Shown here: one piece after another, positions 5,951-55,419 of the stretch
Layout: the number at the start of each line of letters is the position of its first letter
How positions within the stretch are numbered: the stretch's first letter is position 1
Assembly: GCF_030384885.1 (NCBI RefSeq)
Contig: NZ_CP128613.1
Reading direction: 5' to 3' (one strand)
From: Escherichia coli
GTDB taxonomy: Bacteria; Pseudomonadota; Gammaproteobacteria; Enterobacterales; Enterobacteriaceae
DNA length: 64,000 bases
Translations under genes and position numbers: made by a program
The notes under the pieces: model-generated
Database searches by the model: none
What the model saw: the letters and a program-made list of their open reading frames with translations, nothing else
Told to the model about the DNA's origin: nothing

Positions 5951-6937
5951 TCAGGAGAAAACTTCGATACCGTGCTTGCGCATGGAGGCCAGTCGATAGC
6001 GCAGGGCACGTGGGGTAATGCCTAACAGGTCGGCGATTTTGCTGCGGTTGCCCTGATATTTGCGCATCAGGTCGGCGATATATTGATACTGCGCGCTTCG
6101 TCCGTGCTGGCCTAAATCGCCGGTTTCGGCAATGTGGACGGCGGGCTGAACAGGCCATTGCAGTTCACTGTGGTCAGCAATATCGGTGTCCGGCAGGCCT
6201 AATGCATCCGGGTAAATTACGCCGTCGCGATTTAAAATCATTCCCCGCTGAATGGCGTTTTCCAGTTGGCGCACGTTACCGGGCCAGCGGTAATTAAGCA
6301 GCGCACGGCGGGTGGATTCGGACAGGGTGATATTTTTCACCAGCACCGTGGAGTATTTTTTAATAAATGACTCTGCCAGCGGAATAATATCGTTCAGGCG
6401 TTCACGCAGTGGCGGCATGGTAATAGGGATAACCGCCAGACGATAATAGAGATCTTCACGAAAACGTCCGGCGGCAACTTCCTGCTCCAGGTTTTTATTG
6501 GTGCAGGCAATCAGGCGAAAATTGAGTTTGATTTGTCGGTTACTGCCTAATCGCTCAACCTGTTGTTCCTGCAATACGCGTAATATTTTGGCCTGTAGCG
6601 CCAGCGGCATTTCACCAATTTCATCGAGTAATAAGGTGCCGTTATTTGCCAGTTCCATTTTTCCTGGCACGCTGGCAATTGCGCCGGTAAATGCACCTTT
6701 GTCGTAGCCAAATAACGTCGATTCCAGCATATTTTCCGGGATCGCCGCGCAGTTCACGCCGATATAGGGCGCATTATCATTTTCACCAAAGGCTACGGTG
6801 TGAATATACTTCGCCACGCACTCTTTCCCCGCGCCGGTTTCGCCCTGAATCAGGACCGGCACGTTAAAGGCGGCGACACGCTTTGCCAGAGTAAAAGCGT
6901 TAATGCTGGAGGCGGCAGATGCAATAAGTTCAGACAT
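5951..6937 (-). CDS. lafK: sigma54-dependent transcriptional activator (AAA+ and C-terminal HTH, no receiver domain), lateral flagellar regulator
   Basis: 328 aa; Walker A GETGAGKE near the N-terminus, GAFTGA motif (YDKGAFTGAI), C-terminal HTH; no room upstream for a receiver domain. Confidence 0.85.
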   Translation of the reverse strand: MSELIASAASSINAFTLAKRVAAFNVPVLIQGETGAGKECVAKYIHTVAFGENDNAPYIGVNCAAIPENMLESTLFGYDKGAFTGAIASVPGKMELANNGTLLLDEIGEMPLALQAKILRVLQEQQVERLGSNRQIKLNFRLIACTNKNLEQEVAAGRFREDLYYRLAVIPITMPPLRERLNDIIPLAESFIKKYSTVLVKNITLSESTRRALLNYRWPGNVRQLENAIQRGMILNRDGVIYPDALGLPDTDIADHSELQWPVQPAVHIAETGDLGQHGRSAQYQYIADLMRKYQGNRSKIADLLGITPRALRYRLASMRKHGIEVFS

Positions 6938-7061
6938 AGGGTGAACAATATAAGTAGCGACAATAATCAGGATGTTCTGAAGCGTATCACCGGCGGGATT
7001 AACAAGTTTGAATTAAACGATAATAAAAATATTATTTGTTTACAAACAACGAGTTATCCAT

Positions 7062-7144
7062 GTAGGCCGGATAAGGCGTTTACGCCGCATCCGACAATCT
7101 TGCACCGGTGCCTGATGCGATGCTGCGCGTCTTATCAGGCCTAC
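7062..7144. repeat. BIME: two inverted REP elements (GCCGGATAAGGCGTTTACGCCGCATCC and GCCTGATGCGATGCTGCGCGTCTTATCAGGC types)
   Basis: Canonical E. coli REP sequences read directly in the lafK/lfiM divergent intergenic region. Confidence 0.7.
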
Positions 7145-7323
7145 TGTTCGTGCAATGTTTTATGACGATGCCTGATATCTCACCCTTTAATAATTTAATT
7201 ATTTTTTCACCCTATTAATAATTTGCCCCTTTCACGCCCCGTCTATTTAATACCTCACCTTGTGTCACTGCCGGAATTGCATGCACAAAAACGCCCATAC
7301 CATTACAGCAGAGAAAGTAAGCC

Positions 7324-8175
7324 ATGCTGAAGTACAGTAAAACGCCAGGCATCTTTAAATTAGAAGGTAATCGGCTCGGACGCCCCTACCATCGCCTGCC
7401 GACCCTGTTTACGGGGAATTTTGACGTGATTGATTCGCATCTTGGCAGCTACTTTCTCAAAAAGCATCGCAGCAATATCACTTTAAAAAAGATTGGTTGC
7501 GAAATGGATATTATTAATAAAAACGCCGAGTTGATGGTTTCCCAGGTCGGGCATCTGGCGTTTGATATTGATCGTTCCTTATTGTTAATGCTGCTGGGTA
7601 ATTTTTATGGTCTGGAATCGTCTCTTGAAGAGGCGAAAGCGCATAACGGCCTACCGACCAAAACCGAAACACGATTAAAGAACCGACTCGCGCTGGATAT
7701 CTGCACGCTGATATTTAATCTGCAAACCTCCGGTATTGCACTGAAATTAAAACTGGACAGCAGCACAGTGATTACCCACTGGGCGTATCAATTAACCTTT
7801 ACCCTCGCGGGCGATGAAGAGAGCCGTTTTCGTATTTTGCTCGACGATGCCCACACCGATTTTATTTTAAATCTGATCCGCCACAGTGAGCACAGTAAAC
7901 CGCAGCAGGTGGCGAAATCCGTCAACAAGCCGGCACTGATTAAAGAGATCATCCGCTCCCTGCCGTTGACCCTGAACGTCAAAATCGCCGAGCTGTCGAT
8001 GAATGTTGCCGATCTGGCGCAGGTAAAAGCCGGAGATATTTTACCCATCTCGCTGGGAGAAACGTTCCCGGTGGCGATTGGGCAATCTGAATTATTTAGC
8101 GCCCTGATAGTGGAAGACAAAGACAAACTGTTTTTGTCGGAGCTGGCGGGCAAAAATGAGAATAGCCATGAGTAA
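7324..8175 (+). CDS. lfiM: flagellar motor switch protein FliM-like
   Basis: 283 aa, C-terminal SpoA-like region; precedes fliN homologue with overlap. Confidence 0.65.
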   Translation: MLKYSKTPGIFKLEGNRLGRPYHRLPTLFTGNFDVIDSHLGSYFLKKHRSNITLKKIGCEMDIINKNAELMVSQVGHLAFDIDRSLLLMLLGNFYGLESSLEEAKAHNGLPTKTETRLKNRLALDICTLIFNLQTSGIALKLKLDSSTVITHWAYQLTFTLAGDEESRFRILLDDAHTDFILNLIRHSEHSKPQQVAKSVNKPALIKEIIRSLPLTLNVKIAELSMNVADLAQVKAGDILPISLGETFPVAIGQSELFSALIVEDKDKLFLSELAGKNENSHE

Positions 8176-13553: not shown

Positions 13554-13636
13554 TTGAGGATTCTTTTCCATACTTTGCAGCACCTGACACCATTAATTGA
13601 CGTCACACTGCAAAGAGACTACGATGACACCATACA

Positions 13637-13936
13637 ATGACGTCATGGATTGATAGTATGATTAAGGTCAGCGCGCTAGGCTCTCGTCATAGAAAAACAT
13701 TCGACGATGTAATGACGGAGCCGCCAAAATCTGGAATTAAATGGGATGATGTTGTTGCTCTCATTAAAGCGGTGGGTGGCTCAATAAAAAATAACAACGG
13801 CTCCAGACGAAAATTTCAGATTGGAACGACCAAATTCAGCACACATGAGCCGCATCCAAAGAATGTGATGGATAAAGGCGCAGTAGCAGGTCTTAAGGAG
13901 TGGTTTGTTAACTGTGTAGGGGTAGATTATGAATAA
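13637..13936 (+). CDS. HicA-like toxin candidate (mRNA interferase fold) with N-terminal extension
   Basis: 99 aa; ALIKAVGGSIK..GSRRKF..THEPHPKNVMDKGAVAGLKEW resembles the HicA pattern; overlaps the downstream gene by 8 nt; true start may be an internal Met. Confidence 0.45.
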   Translation: MTSWIDSMIKVSALGSRHRKTFDDVMTEPPKSGIKWDDVVALIKAVGGSIKNNNGSRRKFQIGTTKFSTHEPHPKNVMDKGAVAGLKEWFVNCVGVDYE

Positions 13937-14285
13937 AGCATCGAACATTATCACAATTAAAGGTCAACCAGCCGCAGTGACATTTGAAGCCGATATCAAC
14001 GCATTTCGCGGCAAGTTCCTCAATGTAAACGGTTATTGTGACTTTGTAGCCACAAGTATTGAGGCATTATATCGTGAAGGCGAAAGCGCTCTGGATGAGT
14101 GGATGGCGGATTGTGAAGAGGACGGTATTGCCCCTTTTCGTGAAGAAGAAGAGCAAAAACGCCTGACGCTTCGTGTGCCGCATCACATCGATTCGCGGCT
14201 GACCATCGTCGCCAGACAACATTCCATTTCAAAAAACCAGCTCATTATTGATGTCTTAGAACGTGAGTTTTCAGCCCAGATGTAA
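13929..14285 (+). CDS. HicB-like antitoxin candidate with C-terminal ribbon-helix-helix DNA-binding domain
   Basis: 118 aa; C-terminus KRLTLRVPHHIDSRLTIVARQHSISKNQLIIDVLEREF is RHH/CopG-like; coupled to the upstream small gene. Confidence 0.45.
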   Translation: MNKASNIITIKGQPAAVTFEADINAFRGKFLNVNGYCDFVATSIEALYREGESALDEWMADCEEDGIAPFREEEEQKRLTLRVPHHIDSRLTIVARQHSISKNQLIIDVLEREFSAQM

Positions 14286-14317
14286 ACAGGTCGGATGCCG
14301 CGTGGCATCCGACCTGT
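14286..14317. terminator. perfect 14-bp stem hairpin between convergent genes (bidirectional terminator candidate)
   Basis: ACAGGTCGGATGCC-GCGT-GGCATCCGACCTGT read directly. Confidence 0.4.
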
Positions 14318-14341
14318 TGCCAGTTCGTCAATATTACCCAT

Positions 14342-22999: not shown

Positions 23000-24889
23000 T
23001 TAAGTGAGTAGGCCACCGGAACCTCCCCGACAGCCTCTCGCAGAACCGTACGTGAAACTCTCGCTTCATACGGCTCCCGTCAGGCAAACGCGCTTCCTGG
23101 TCCTGCTTTCCAGTGGGCAAACAACTCCGGCTTCTCTTTTGACAGCCTTTCCATTAGCTGACACGCCTTCGTCTTTCTATACCGCAGGGTTTTATATTTC
23201 TTTCTCGCCCACGCAATCAGCGTCAGATTAATATATCTGCATACTTTCTTCATCGCTGATTTGTGGTATCTCGCGTAATAATTCAGCCACCCCGATATTA
23301 TCGGATTCAGCCACTTCGCAATATCTTCGAGACTCATCTCCACCCTGCGTCTGATCCACAGTTTCCTGAGTTTTCCAATCATGCCTTTCTGCGCACGGTT
23401 ACTCGCCGCCGGGCTGAAACTCGTAAAGAGGTTTCCCCGCCGGTGGTTACGTGCTCTTCGCGCTCTGAACGTATACCCCAGAAAATCAAACTGCACTGTT
23501 TCATGGTTCGCCTGTCGTTCGCTGTCTTTGCAGTAAACTATTTTCGTTTTCTCCGGATGTAATTCCAGTCCACATTCCTGAAAACGTTTTGCCAGCTTAT
23601 TCAGTAATTCCTCTGCCTGTTGTTTACTGCCACAATGAATTAATCCATCATCTGCATAACGGCACCAGGGAATTTCCGGATAATGTAACGTCAGCCATTT
23701 ATCAAACACATAGTGCAGAAATAAATTCGCCAGTACCGGGCTGATGACTCCACCCTGTGGCGTACCTTTATTTCTTTCCTTCAGTGTTCCATCCGGCATC
23801 TGCACCGGCGCTGTCAGCCACCGGCGAATAGACAGTCTTACCCATTTATCCGCACAATGTTTATCCACTGCCCTGAGTAATAAATCGTGGGGGATATTAT
23901 CGAATAACCCTTTAATATCAAACTCAAGACACCAGTCGTATTGCCAGCAACGTTTTCTGGTGACTGCTATTGCATCCAGCGCTGATTTTCCATGCCGGTA
24001 TCCGTATGAATCATTCAGGAAATAACGCTCCACTAATGGTTCAAACGTTACCAGCACCGTCATCTGCGCTATTCGATCGCTTACTGTCGGTATTCCTAAA
24101 AGTCTTTTGCTGCCATCCTTCTTCGGAATTTCCACCGCACGCACTGGCGGCGGCATCCAGCTTCCCGACGATAACCTGTTCCAGATTTTGTACAGATTTC
24201 CTTTCAGATCCCGCTCAAAATCTTTCAGCGTCTGGTTATCCACTCCGGCAGCTCCGGCATTCGCCTTTATCCGCCGGTACGCTTCCACCACATGCAATTT
24301 ACTGACCTGAAACGGTTTTGTCTGTTCACACACAGCCTCCTCCTGCCTACAGTTGGGCTGTGATGCAGACTGCCCGACGCTGTCCCTTCGCTCCACGTTC
24401 ATTACAAACGCTTCCTCACTACTACGAACAGCTCTGCCCCGGTTTCGCACATCGATACTCTCATACTCATAATTTCGGTTATTTGTATTTCTCTCTTGAC
24501 ATTGCGACGACCGGTTCCCGTAGTTCCTGCAAAGAGCCCGATACAGCGTCATGCCTGCTATACACCGGACATCATTCACGCAGCATTCGGAATTCACCCG
24601 TAAATTAATCCCGGCGGTATCACGAAACCTCCGGTTTTGATGTCACTTAGGACTAACGACGTTTCAACACAGGTTCGGGTTTACTCATCTCACTGTATCT
24701 CACATAGGATCAGATCTCGTCTGATCGTTCCCCCTGCGCTCACTACCATGGCTCTTTACCACAGCAGCCGGGGTTGTTTGGGACCGACTTCCGACAGCAG
24801 ATCCCGGTGGGCCTGCCACCATCTCTTCACAAGCTTATGCTTATTACATGCAAAACGTCCCGTTTTGCATCTTTGTGCCTACGGCACAC
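23000..24889 (-). mobile_element. group II intron (approximate boundaries), carrying an intron-encoded protein
   Basis: Minus strand: candidate 5' end GUGUG at 24889; domain V GAGCCGTATGAAGCGAGAGTTTCACGTACGGTTC at 23078..23041 immediately after the IEP stop; 3' end not precisely mapped. Confidence 0.6.
23080..24402 (-). CDS. group II intron reverse transcriptase/maturase, no endonuclease domain
   Basis: ORF 23080..24597 trimmed to MNVERRD; RT motifs including YADD (CRYADDGLIHC) and a maturase (X) domain; ends without an HNH region. Confidence 0.85.
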   Translation of the reverse strand: MNVERRDSVGQSASQPNCRQEEAVCEQTKPFQVSKLHVVEAYRRIKANAGAAGVDNQTLKDFERDLKGNLYKIWNRLSSGSWMPPPVRAVEIPKKDGSKRLLGIPTVSDRIAQMTVLVTFEPLVERYFLNDSYGYRHGKSALDAIAVTRKRCWQYDWCLEFDIKGLFDNIPHDLLLRAVDKHCADKWVRLSIRRWLTAPVQMPDGTLKERNKGTPQGGVISPVLANLFLHYVFDKWLTLHYPEIPWCRYADDGLIHCGSKQQAEELLNKLAKRFQECGLELHPEKTKIVYCKDSERQANHETVQFDFLGYTFRARRARNHRRGNLFTSFSPAASNRAQKGMIGKLRKLWIRRRVEMSLEDIAKWLNPIISGWLNYYARYHKSAMKKVCRYINLTLIAWARKKYKTLRYRKTKACQLMERLSKEKPELFAHWKAGPGSAFA

Positions 24890-51628: not shown

Positions 51629-51739
51629 GTCCACAAAATACCGGATGAGGCGTGAGCGCCTTACCCGGCCTACAAAATCGTGCTAATACAAAATGTTGCA
51701 TTATTGGCTGTAGGCCTGATAAGCGCTGCGCATCAGGCA
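51629..51739. repeat. BIME-like pair of REP elements between yaeF and nlpE
   Basis: CCGGATGAGGCGTGAGCGCCTTACCCGGCCTAC and GTAGGCCTGATAAGCGCTGCGCATCAGGCA. Confidence 0.65.
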
Positions 51740-54071: not shown

Positions 54072-54123
54072 TTTACTTTCGCCGGATGCGACGTTTGATG
54101 CGTCTTATCCGGCTTTCACTTAA

Positions 54124-55419
54124 CTAAGCGTTTCGCCGCCAGACAAAACTTACGCCATTCTCACCTTCAGCCACACCTTCTTGCGTCACAAATACCTCTG
54201 CCGCTGCAATCAGCGTTTCGCCATAAAACAGCAGTGGCGTGGTGTCACGCAACCACGGCGGTACGCCCAGTTCCTGCCAGATTTTCTTTAACTTACGCCC
54301 ACCATTGCGCCCGACAATATGCAGCAATCCTGGCGCTTTGAAACGCACACTGACCGCTTCGTCTGCACGCGGAGGGCGAATATCGCCTCCCGCAGTAAGC
54401 TGTACACTTCCCAGCGCCGCCGGTAATTCCAGCGGTTGTAACCACGTCTGCCACGGCACAATGGTTTCGCTTTGCCCAGTGACGGATTTAATCCACCACA
54501 GTTGCGATTGATAGCGGCGGATTTCAAACGCCCCCAAACGTAAACAGGGGGAAGCATCTTCTCGCGCCAGCGCCACTTCCTGCCAGATCCTCACCAACGC
54601 GTCGCGGGAAGGCATCGGTGCATTCTGCCCTGCCAGCCAGCGGCGGATAATCGCCGCGCGACGGGCATCACTCATCGCCAGCATTGGCGCAATCTGCAGC
54701 GTCCCCTGCGGCGTTTGACAGTGTGCTAAATCATCTGCCAGCAGTTCATCCAGCAGGCTCTCTTGCTCAGCACAAAGTGCAGCGCTGCGGGCCGTTGCTT
54801 CGGCAAAATGCGGCCAACGCTGCTGCAATAACGGCACTACGCGTAGGCGCAGGAAGTTACGATCGTATGAGTCGTCCTGATTACTTTCGTCTTCAATCCA
54901 ACGTAAACCATGCGCCAACGCCCACTGCTCCAGTTCTCCCCGTGTGCGGGCGAGCAACGGTCGGATCAGCCGCGTTCCGGCAAACTCCGAGACTTCCGCC
55001 ATAGCCGAAAGCCCTGCAGGGCCGCTACCACGTTTTAACGCCAGCAGAAACGTTTCACATTGATCGTCGAGATGTTGCGCTGTAACCAGCACTTCACCAG
55101 GTAACAGGGTACGAGCAAATGCCTGATAACGTGCCTGCCGCGCCTGAGCCTCAATACCTAGCCCCTCTTGCGCAAGTTGCACACGCTCAACCACCAGCGG
55201 CACCTGCCACTGCTGGCAGATATTTTCACAATGTTTCACCCAAGCATCAGCGTTGGCACTTAAACCATGATGCACATGAATAGCGCGCAGGGTGACGCCC
55301 GGATTTTCCGTCCGCCACTGCACCAACTGATGCAGCAGAACGGTGGAGTCAAGCCCGCCGCTAAAGGCCACCAGAATCTGGCGTGAGATGAGAAGTTGTC
55401 TATTGAGAGTGAGTGTCAT
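54124..55419 (-). CDS. tilS: tRNA(Ile)-lysidine synthetase
   Basis: 431 aa; PP-loop SGGLDS near the N-terminus. Confidence 0.9.

What the first reader, a model, noticed from the sequence alone, without database searches (positions are those of the whole stretch)
7062..7144. BIME (paired REP elements) inside the divergent lafK / fliM-homologue regulatory region
Two canonical REP sequences in inverted orientation sit between the regulator gene and the divergent export operon. REP/BIME elements usually lie at 3' ends of genes; here they are upstream of the regulator start, so they could affect mRNA stability or DNA gyrase/IHF binding at the promoter of the lateral flagellar regulator.
Basis: seen in the sequence. 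Interest (0 to 1): 0.3.

Follow-up and report, generated by a model that had tools for sequence, protein, structure and literature searches.

The report
REP pair between divergent flagellar promoters
A genuine copy of E. coli's commonest dispersed repeat (a two-hairpin REP/BIME element) sits in the unconserved spacer between the probable back-to-back promoters of the lateral-flagella regulator gene lafK and the lfiM export operon. This is a rare position for such a repeat, but comparison with other strains points to a variable passenger, not a working part of the regulatory region.

Summary
Window 7062-7144 holds two canonical E. coli REPs in inverted orientation: a y-type on the minus strand and a z1-type on the plus strand, joined by a 13-nt linker. 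They lie in the 386-bp lafK/lfiM divergent intergenic region. Rfam's REP-pair model (naRNA4) scores above its gathering cut-off, and the same sequence recurs about 25 times in 5425 of 5426 E. coli genomes.

By its parts it is an "atypical" BIME (y + short linker + z1). It has no long L linker and no IHF consensus, so the IHF idea is not supported.

About 94% of E. coli Flag-2 loci carry a BIME here. The site also varies: 5 REPs in strain LR-46, a 6-unit tandem array in Pseudocitrobacter, a different dispersed GC-rich repeat in 58 genomes, and no REP in Citrobacter, Phytobacter or Enterobacter.

A sigma-70-like promoter for lfiM occurs exactly once in each of 26 intergenic regions from several genera. 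A weaker lafK-directed match is also conserved. Both place the BIME upstream of both transcripts.

Most likely it is a tolerated mobile repeat in a permissive spacer. An effect on DNA topology is possible but untested. It is ordinary and of low interest.

The parts
5951..6937 (-). lafK (328 aa sigma-54-dependent activator with no receiver domain), the left flanking gene
   Evidence: ORF. Pfam Sigma54_activat 1.9e-64, AAA_lid_14 and HTH_8. RefSeq homologues are annotated as sigma-54 interaction domain protein.
7020..7049 (-). Candidate lafK promoter (inferred): -35 TTGTTT (7049->7044), 18-nt spacer, -10 TATTAT (7025->7020); start site near 7012
   Evidence: TTGTnn-N18-TAT(T/A)AT is kept at the same place in all 7 Escherichia/Pseudocitrobacter alleles and in 4 Citrobacter loci; Enterobacter ENT03 has TTGTTT-N18-TAATAT. 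It is only a consensus match in AT-rich DNA, so confidence is low to moderate.
7022..7036 (.). Left AT-rich palindrome AATAA-N5-TTATT, inside the conserved left block (about 7000-7038)
   Evidence: Repeats D1 and I3. The block is conserved in E. coli, Pseudocitrobacter and Citrobacter.
7062..7096 (-). REP unit 1, y-type (minus strand reads TGTCGGATGCGGCGTAAACGCCTTATCCGGCCTAC)
   Evidence: hairpin -18.6 kcal/mol on the minus strand, z = -3.6.
7097..7109 (.). 13-nt head-to-head linker ATCTTGCACCGGT (short, S-like; not the IHF-binding L motif)
   Evidence: The K-12 fre/fadA BIME and the yafL-rayT BIME have a linker of the same length. No IHF consensus was found.
7110..7144 (+). REP unit 2, z1-type (GCCTGATGCGATGCTGCGCGTCTTATCAGGCCTAC, 35 nt)
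   Evidence: hairpin -18.4 kcal/mol, z = -4.3. It is longer than the 30-nt z2 REP at 51710-51739 in the same window.
7145..7175 (+). Linker-like remnant ending in a REP 5' stub GCCTGAT (7169-7175): the footprint of a formerly longer BIME and the right edge of the repeat-occupied segment
   Evidence: Direct repeat D2, CGGTGCCTGAT / CGATGCCTGAT. The junction GCCTGAT|ATCTCACCC is shared with the Pseudocitrobacter array; PSS-12 and LR-46 have the variant GCCCGACATCTCACCC there.
7189..7203 (.). Right AT-rich palindrome AATAA-N5-TTATT, in the conserved right block (about 7188-7222)
   Evidence: D1, I3. Conserved.
7214..7221 (+). ATTAATAA motif just upstream of the lfiM -35; conserved across Flag-2 loci of many genera; the protein that binds it is unknown
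   Evidence: (G/T)ATTAATAA lies 1-11 nt upstream of the -35 in nearly all of the 22 regions listed.
7223..7251 (+). Probable lfiM operon promoter (inferred): -35 TTGCCC (7223-7228), 17-nt spacer, -10 TTTAAT (7246-7251); start site near 7258
   Evidence: TTGNNN-N17-TNNAAT occurs exactly once in each of 26 lafK-lfiM intergenic regions (Escherichia to Yersinia and Erwinia). Composition-matched shuffles give 0.065 per region. Context is shown.
7324..8175 (+). lfiM (FliM-like switch protein), first gene of the lfiMNPQR-lfhBA export operon
   Evidence: Pfam FliMN_C. RefSeq annotation.

Best explanation
This is an ordinary, non-autonomous REP/BIME repeat of the 'atypical' kind (y REP, 13-nt linker, z1 REP). 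It occupies the one stretch of the lafK-lfiM regulatory region that is free to vary: the spacer between two back-to-back promoters. These are P_lafK (start near 7012, minus strand) and P_lfiM (start near 7258, plus strand), each with its own conserved AT-rich upstream block.

The BIME lies at about -50 to -132 from P_lafK and -114 to -196 from P_lfiM. It is therefore probably not part of either mRNA. It is tolerated because the distance and sequence between the two promoter blocks are not constrained. It changes by the usual BIME processes of amplification, deletion, gene conversion and replacement.

Shown: the identity of the element, its polymorphism, and the conserved blocks. Inferred: the promoter positions, and hence that the BIME is not transcribed and has no required function.
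For: 1. Identity. It has canonical REP cores, hairpins and genome-wide copies and an Rfam REP-pair hit above gathering. Its architecture matches the K-12 fre/fadA BIME and the yafL-rayT BIME.
2. Variation among E. coli. Of 1284 genomes with the flanking blocks, 1211 carry a full-length BIME allele. LR-46 has 5 REPs in a 531-bp intergenic region. 58 genomes have a different dispersed GC-rich repeat in its place. Strain 1506 has IS1 at this position and only the last 46 bp of the intergenic region remain next to lfiM.
3. Variation among genera. Pseudocitrobacter faecalis has 6.1 tandem 100-bp BIME units at the same site. Citrobacter, Phytobacter and Enterobacter have no REP there but keep the flanking blocks.
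4. Faster change in the centre. The centre (7038-7187) is 85-95% identical between 2-REP alleles whose flanks are 94-100% identical.
5. Spacer length is free. The distance between the two -35 elements is 116-130 bp in REP-free relatives, 159 bp in the alternative-repeat allele, 173 bp here, 318 bp in LR-46 and 675 bp in Pseudocitrobacter.
6. Promoters. The lfiM promoter motif is present exactly once in 26 of 26 regions, against 0.065 expected. The lafK-directed motif is kept in 12 regions.
7. No other signals. The intergenic region has no sigma-54 promoter, IHF site or terminator-like site.
8. Agreement with homologous systems. The fliM_L operon is LafK-independent in V. parahaemolyticus (PMC3930126). 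Class I lateral genes, including lafK, are sigma-70-dependent in Aeromonas (PMC4481668).
9. Agreement with known BIME behaviour. [quoted passage not shown]
Against: - The promoters are predicted, not mapped.
- A plus-strand sigma-70-like match, TTGAAT-N16-TATTAT at 7008-7035, would transcribe straight through the BIME towards lfiM. A minus-strand TTATTA-N17-TTAAAT in the right block (read by eye) could do the same towards lafK.
- About 94% of E. coli Flag-2 loci keep a BIME here. That may be shared ancestry, but it could also be selection.
- No empty-site Escherichia allele was found, so the insertion event itself is not documented.
- The BIME ends 12 bp from the lafK -35-like hexamer. It replaces AT-rich upstream DNA (about 20% G+C) with 59% G+C DNA, which could change promoter strength.
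Confidence: 0.65

Rival explanations
1. DNA-level role. The BIME binds gyrase or extrudes hairpins, and so acts as a topological buffer or insulator between the two divergent promoters. REP copy number would then set how strongly lafK and lfiM transcription are coupled.
For: Each REP and the whole pair can form stable single-strand DNA hairpins (-22.5 kcal/mol, z = -4.0). The element lies exactly between the predicted back-to-back promoters. The literature reports gyrase binding and topological insulation for BIMEs (cited in PMC3333891). Copy number varies naturally between strains.
Against: Gyrase cleavage was characterised for BIME-2 (z2 REPs), and this element has a z1 REP. Divergent transcription builds up negative supercoils, not the positive ones that gyrase removes (twin-domain model, established knowledge). 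REP-free relatives and the 58 genomes with a different repeat manage without it. [quoted passage not shown]
Confidence: 0.15
2. RNA-level role. The BIME lies in a long 5' leader of lafK or of lfiM, transcribed from a promoter on the far side of the spacer. Its hairpins would then stabilise the mRNA or attenuate transcription.
For: A plus-strand promoter-like match at 7008-7035 faces the BIME, and a minus-strand one lies in the right AT block (from the sequence). The RNA hairpins are strong on both strands. BIMEs can attenuate transcription (Espeli 2001, cited).
Against: A conserved lfiM promoter lies downstream of the BIME. The leader would be about 750 nt with 12 hairpins in Pseudocitrobacter. 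There is no U-tract terminator. REP effects on RNA are described for 3' ends. The AT-rich blocks give many chance -10-like matches.
Confidence: 0.12
3. It is an IHF-binding RIP/RIB element (BIME-1) that bends the promoter DNA.
For: The REP types (y plus z1) are those of BIME-1 (PMC3333891).
Against: The linker is 13 nt, not the long L motif that carries the IHF site. There is no WATCAANNNNTTR anywhere in 6938-7323. [quoted passage not shown]
Confidence: 0.02
4. It encodes an independent naRNA4-like small RNA that binds HU.
For: The Rfam RF02564 match is above gathering on the plus strand (73.5 bits).
Against: The model essentially describes any y/z REP pair: it also hits every unit of the Pseudocitrobacter array. 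There is no dedicated promoter or terminator. The proposed chromosome-compaction role of REP325, the source of naRNA4, is disputed by the 2026 preprint.
Confidence: 0.03

Closest known systems
Atypical BIMEs of E. coli (y REP, short linker, z1 REP), e.g. the fre/fadA BIME of K-12 and the yafL-rayT 'REPtron' BIME
   Same: Same REP types, same inverted arrangement, a 13-nt linker of the same length, 88-89% identity over the whole element, and the same tendency to vary in copy number between strains (PMC3333891).
   Different: Those copies lie at 3' ends or between convergent genes. This one lies between divergent genes, a class holding about 1% of E. coli REPs.
BIME-1 (RIP/RIB: y, L linker, z1, binds IHF)
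   Same: Same y and z1 REP types.
   Different: No long L linker and no IHF consensus. The locus shows tandem amplification, whereas BIME-1 is single copy.
BIME-2 (y, S linker, z2, tandem; gyrase target)
   Same: Short linker, and tandem amplification of about 100-bp units in LR-46 and Pseudocitrobacter.
   Different: The z REP is the 35-nt z1 form, not the 30-nt z2 form seen at 51710-51739. Gyrase binding was not tested.
naRNA4 / REP325 (Rfam RF02564)
   Same: Matches the covariance model end to end and above the gathering score.
   Different: REP325 is a 12-hairpin array in the yjdM-yjdN 3' region. Here there are two hairpins between promoters, with no evidence of expression.
REPINs mobilised by RAYT (TnpAREP) transposases
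   Same: Two inverted REPs with a GTAG foot. Other strains carry rayT next to lfhA, which ends about 6.5 kb from this BIME in the window.
   Different: rayT is not in this window. A hicAB-like cassette sits where rayT and its BIME lie in strain 2e. Mobilisation was not shown.

Membership tests
REP / palindromic unit of E. coli | Imperfect palindrome of about 35 nt ending in ...CG(C/T)CTTATC(C/A)GGCCTAC (Stern 1984 consensus, quoted in PMC7967276) | tested here: met
   Both units carry the exact 14-nt core, and each folds as a hairpin.
REP / palindromic unit of E. coli | Many dispersed copies per genome | tested here: met
   The BIME part matches 5425 of 5426 genomes, with a median of 25 places each.
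REP / palindromic unit of E. coli | Extragenic position | tested here: met
   It lies in the 386-bp lafK-lfiM intergenic region.
BIME | Two or more REPs in alternating orientation, separated by short linkers | tested here: met
   y REP (-) at 7062-7096, 13-nt linker, z REP (+) at 7110-7144.
BIME-1 (RIP/RIB) | Long L linker carrying an IHF site | tested here: not met
   The linker is 13 nt, and there is no WATCAANNNNTTR in the intergenic region.
BIME-2 | z2-type REP paired with y | tested here: not met
   The z unit is 35 nt with a GACGCGC...GC core (z1). A z2 unit of 30 nt is seen at 51710-51739 for contrast. The z1 and z2 consensus sequences are from my own knowledge of Bachellier et al.
BIME-2 | DNA gyrase binding and cleavage | not testable with these tools
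   This needs in vivo cleavage mapping.
Atypical BIME (chimeric) | Mixed parts (z1 with a short linker) and copy number that varies between strains at one locus (PMC3333891) | tested here: met
   y, 13-nt linker, z1. The same site holds 2, 5 or 12 REPs in different genomes.
Rfam RF02564 naRNA4 | Covariance-model score at or above the gathering threshold | tested here: met
   73.5 bits against 59.5, covering model positions 1-77.
Rfam RF02564 naRNA4 | Expressed, processed RNA that binds HU | not testable with these tools
   No expression data are available. No promoter or terminator is dedicated to it.
REP as 3'-UTR regulator (terminator / decay block) | Lies downstream of a gene, in a tandem or convergent pair | tested here: not met
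   The flanking genes diverge, and the predicted promoters put it upstream of both start sites.
REPIN mobilised by RAYT | A cognate rayT gene in the same genome | tested here: inconclusive
   tblastn with RayT finds nothing in the 64-kb window. The rest of the genome is not available.

The most novel reading that the evidence does not exclude
The repeat-occupied spacer between P_lafK and P_lfiM works as a natural tuning dial. REP copy number (0, 2, 5 or 12) or a swap to another palindromic repeat would change local supercoil absorption, gyrase access and promoter spacing. That would set strain-specific expression, or silencing, of the Flag-2 master regulator and export operon. REPs are otherwise studied almost only at 3' ends, so this would be a BIME function at promoters.
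Probability: 0.08. Interest if true: 0.5.

Novelty: already known. Interest (0 to 1): 0.18.

Why it matters
On its own it matters little. It is one more copy of a repeat family described since 1984, and a curated Rfam model recognises it automatically.

Two modest points are useful. First, it belongs to the rare class of REPs between divergent genes (about 1%). Nature has supplied an allelic series at one site: no REP, 2, 5 or 12 REPs, or a different repeat. That series could test cleanly whether BIMEs do anything at promoters.

Second, the comparison needed to judge it exposed the probable core promoter of the lfiM export operon and a conserved ATTAATAA upstream motif shared by Flag-2 loci of many genera.

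Tried and rejected
- **Sigma-54 promoter scan.** TGGCAC-N5-TTGCW with up to 2 mismatches gave nothing in 6938-7323. Window-wide hits (31) were below the chance expectation (42), so the scan carries little information.
- **IHF consensus.** None in the intergenic region.
- **Intrinsic terminators.** None.
- **First REP pattern.** My fixed-loop pattern missed both units because the loop length differs. The 14-nt core search found them.
- **Is rayT next to the Flag-2 end in this strain?** No. A hicAB-like cassette lies between lfhA and yafL instead.
- **Source strain.** ldcC-accA-dnaE is 100% identical to E. coli 2013C-4282, but that genome has type VI secretion genes, not Flag-2, at the position expected if the two genomes were collinear. 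No complete RefSeq genome has this exact intergenic allele; the best is 96.1%.
- **Alternative repeat.** Megablast found it once per genome, in 58 genomes. Only the sensitive search showed that it is a dispersed family. I call it Box C-like from memory only; this was not tested against a reference.
- **lafK promoter.** Sigma-28-like and other sigma-70 arrangements were examined by eye and dropped as unconvincing.
- **Ren et al. 2005** (the original Flag-2 paper) is not in the held library.
- **Empty-site Escherichia allele.** None appeared among the rows I could list.

Full report
**1. Is it there?**

Yes. Window 7062-7096 reads GTAGGCCGGATAAGGCGTTTACGCCGCATCCGACA, the reverse complement of a y-type REP. 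Window 7110-7144 reads GCCTGATGCGATGCTGCGCGTCTTATCAGGCCTAC, a z1-type REP. A 13-nt linker, ATCTTGCACCGGT, lies between them.

- The outer arms are 17 nt and 88% complementary, and the z unit is itself a palindrome.
- The REP core CTTATCMGGCCTAC matches exactly at both places. Allowing up to 2 mismatches, 0.55 matches are expected by chance in the whole window and 5 were found.
- Each unit folds as a hairpin. The 96-nt stretch folds at -40.9 kcal/mol against -27.8 for shuffles.
- Rfam's covariance model for a REP pair (RF02564, naRNA4) matches 7065-7141 end to end at 73.5 bits, above its gathering score of 59.5. It is the only such hit in the window.
- The BIME part of the intergenic region matches 5425 of 5426 complete E. 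coli genomes, at a median of 25 places each.

**2. Context**

- 5951-6937 (-) encodes a 328-aa protein with a sigma-54 interaction domain, an AAA lid and a Fis-type HTH. This is LafK.
- 7324-8175 (+) encodes a FliM/FliN-family protein, followed by fliN-, fliP-, fliQ- and fliR-like ORFs and two further ORFs of 379 and 697 aa (lfhB and lfhA by position and size; not searched).
- The window is E. coli: ldcC-accA-dnaE is 99-100% identical to many strains. No complete RefSeq genome has this exact intergenic allele, and the best is 96.1%.
- The BIME is a 59% G+C island between two blocks of about 20% G+C.
- The other REP sites in the window are in typical places. One pair (51642-51739) lies between convergent ORFs. 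A single REP (54081-54117) lies just after the stop of a minus-strand ORF.
- A recent preprint puts about 40% of E. coli REPs between tandem genes, about 60% between convergent genes and about 1% between divergent genes (10.64898/2026.03.23.713779).

**3. What kind of BIME**

Ton-Hoang et al. (PMC3333891) summarise three classes:

| Class | Parts | Copy number |
|---|---|---|
| BIME-1 | y + z1, long L linker that often carries an IHF site | single |
| BIME-2 | y + z2, short linker | tandem |
| Atypical | chimeras of the above | tandem, variable between strains |

Here the REPs are y and z1, but the linker is 13 nt. The z unit is 35 nt, against the 30-nt z2 unit seen at 51710-51739. The z1 and z2 consensus sequences are from my own knowledge. 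The intergenic region has no IHF consensus. It is therefore an atypical BIME.

The K-12 BIME between fre and fadA, and the BIME between yafL and rayT, have the same y / 13-nt linker / z1 layout.

To the right of the z unit, 7145-7175 looks like leftover linker and ends in a REP 5' stub, GCCTGAT (7169-7175). The stub repeats the start of the z unit (D2). The junction GCCTGAT|ATCTCACCC is shared with the Pseudocitrobacter array, and PSS-12 and LR-46 carry the variant GCCCGACATCTCACCC. The element was probably once longer.

**4. Comparison with other Flag-2 loci**

*Within E. coli:*

- 1284 of 5426 genomes have the conserved flanks of this intergenic region. Of these, 1211 have a full-length BIME-containing allele of 386-387 bp.
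- Strain LR-46 has 5 REPs, one with an internal deletion, in a 531-bp region.
- 58 genomes, such as TUM14759, have a 372-bp allele in which the BIME is replaced by a GC-rich palindromic element. That element is itself a dispersed repeat, found in 5425 genomes at a median of 17 places each. It resembles Box C from memory; this was not tested.
- In strain 1506, IS1 lies at this position and only the last 46 bp of the intergenic region remain next to lfiM.

*Outside E. coli:*

- Pseudocitrobacter faecalis (LafK 95% identical) has 6.1 tandem copies of a 100-bp y/z unit at the same site, in an 888-bp region.
- Citrobacter werkmanii, C. youngae, C. amalonaticus, Citrobacter sp. FP75, Phytobacter and Enterobacter sp. 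ENT03 have no REP there (Rfam found none in the two Citrobacter loci scanned). They keep the AT-rich blocks on either side, with unrelated spacer sequence between.

*Rate of change.* Among 2-REP alleles the centre (7038-7187) is 85-95% identical while the flanks are 94-100% identical. The window's flanks match strain MFDS1022581 (100% and 99.3%) although the centre is only 85% identical, which indicates recombination in or next to the BIME.

**5. Where are the promoters?**

- There is no sigma-54 promoter match in the intergenic region. This agrees with homologous systems: the fliM_L operon is LafK-independent in Vibrio parahaemolyticus (PMC3930126), and class I lateral genes, including lafK, are sigma-70-dependent in Aeromonas (PMC4481668).
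- *lfiM side.* TTGCCC-N17-TTTAAT (7223-7251) belongs to a pattern, TTGNNN-N17-TNNAAT, found exactly once in each of 26 lafK-lfiM intergenic regions from Escherichia to Yersinia and Erwinia. Composition-matched shuffles give 0.065 per region. It is preceded by a conserved ATTAATAA motif. This places the start near 7258 and the BIME at -114 to -196.
- *lafK side.* The best candidate is TTGTTT-N18-TATTAT on the minus strand (7049->7020). It is kept in all seven Escherichia/Pseudocitrobacter alleles and four Citrobacter loci, with TTGTTT-N18-TAATAT in Enterobacter ENT03. The start would be near 7012 and the BIME at -50 to -132. This second promoter is a weaker call, because the block is AT-rich and conserved as a whole.
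- *Spacer length.* The distance between the two -35 elements is 116-130 bp in REP-free relatives, 159 bp in the alternative-repeat allele, 173 bp here, 318 bp in LR-46 and 675 bp in Pseudocitrobacter. Spacing is clearly not constrained.

**6. Most likely explanation (about 0.65)**

The BIME is a tolerated mobile repeat sitting in the only unconstrained part of a back-to-back promoter region. It lies outside both transcripts and evolves by the usual BIME amplification, deletion, conversion and replacement.

- Shown: the identity of the element, its polymorphism, and the conserved flanks.
- Inferred: the start sites and the lack of function.

**7. Rivals**

- *DNA-level role as a gyrase site or supercoil sink between divergent promoters (about 0.15).* It is attractive because of the position and the natural copy-number series. 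However, gyrase cleavage was characterised for z2-containing BIME-2, and REP-free relatives do without it.
- *RNA leader role (about 0.12).* This would need a promoter beyond the BIME. A plus-strand TTGAAT-N16-TATTAT at 7008-7035 and a minus-strand match in the right block keep it alive. Against it, the conserved lfiM promoter lies downstream of the BIME, and the Pseudocitrobacter leader would hold 12 hairpins.
- *IHF-binding RIP/RIB (about 0.02).* Contradicted by the short linker.
- *Independent naRNA4-like sRNA (about 0.03).* It rests only on a model that recognises any y/z pair.

**8. Verdict**

The element is real and its position is rare, but IHF binding is not supported, an mRNA role is unlikely, and gyrase binding is untested.
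- The element is an ordinary member of a long-known family that existing curated models detect, so interest is low.
- The by-products deserve a note: a probable lfiM promoter and an ATTAATAA motif conserved across genera, and a site alternately occupied by two repeat families.

Noticed in passing
L001 (E. coli TUM14759) about 1620-1700, the place that corresponds to window 7040-7187: In 58 E. coli genomes the BIME is replaced by a GC-rich palindromic element (...CCCTCACCCTAACCCTCTCCCCGGATGGGGCGAGGGGAC...). That element is itself a dispersed repeat, with a median of 17 places per genome in 5425 genomes. It looks like Box C from memory. Two different repeat families therefore take turns at one site.
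   Followed up: partly
L004 (Pseudocitrobacter faecalis DSM 27453) 2260-2870: 6.1 tandem copies of a 100-bp E. coli-type y/z BIME unit lie at the same lafK-lfiM site (95% matches), and LafK is 95% identical to the window's. E. coli-type REPs in another genus suggest recent transfer of the Flag-2 locus, or shared REP families.
   Followed up: partly
window 7214-7251, and the matching places in 25 other loci (L001-L027, L083-L086): A TTGNNN-N17-TNNAAT promoter-like motif occurs exactly once upstream of lfiM in every Flag-2 locus examined. It is preceded by a conserved (G/T)ATTAATAA motif. The regulator that binds it is unknown, and none of the Flag-2 papers I searched mentions it.
   Followed up: partly
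window 7022-7036 and 7189-7203: Both conserved AT-rich blocks flanking the BIME contain the same palindrome, AATAA-N5-TTATT. It could be a shared operator for the two divergent promoters, or simply AT-rich upstream DNA.
   Followed up: no
window 7270-7277: GCCGGAAT lies in the predicted lfiM leader. The matching place in two distant loci (L011, L012) reads GCCGATAA, the sigma-28 -10 consensus. This may be a second, LafS-dependent promoter. No convincing -35 was seen.
   Followed up: no
window 6938-7323 compared with L083 (MFDS1022581) and L002 (RMDEC465): The allele is a mosaic. Its flanks are 100% and 99.3% identical to MFDS1022581 while the centre is 85% identical. The centre and left flank are closest to RMDEC465 (94.7% and 100%). 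The recombination breakpoints lie at or next to the BIME.
   Followed up: partly
window 13560-14340: Between lfhA and yafL this strain has a hicA/hicB-like pair (Pfam HicB on 13929-14285), followed by a GC-rich hairpin at 14287-14316. Strain 2e carries a BIME plus the REP transposase gene rayT at that position. rayT is absent from the whole window.
   Followed up: partly
window 6176-6191 (-): GGACACCGATATTGCT is a 2-mismatch sigma-54-like match inside the 3' part of lafK, about 240 nt upstream of lfiE. Such matches are at chance level in this window (31 found, 42 expected), so it is probably meaningless.
   Followed up: no
window 23003-24820 (-): Rfam finds group II intron domains (RF00029 and RF01999), so a group II intron lies in this stretch of the chromosome.
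   Followed up: no
window 51642-51739 and 54081-54117: The other REPs in the window are in typical positions. A y/z2 pair with a 36-nt tail-to-tail linker lies between convergent ORFs. A single REP lies directly after the stop of the minus-strand ORF 54124-55419.
   Followed up: yes
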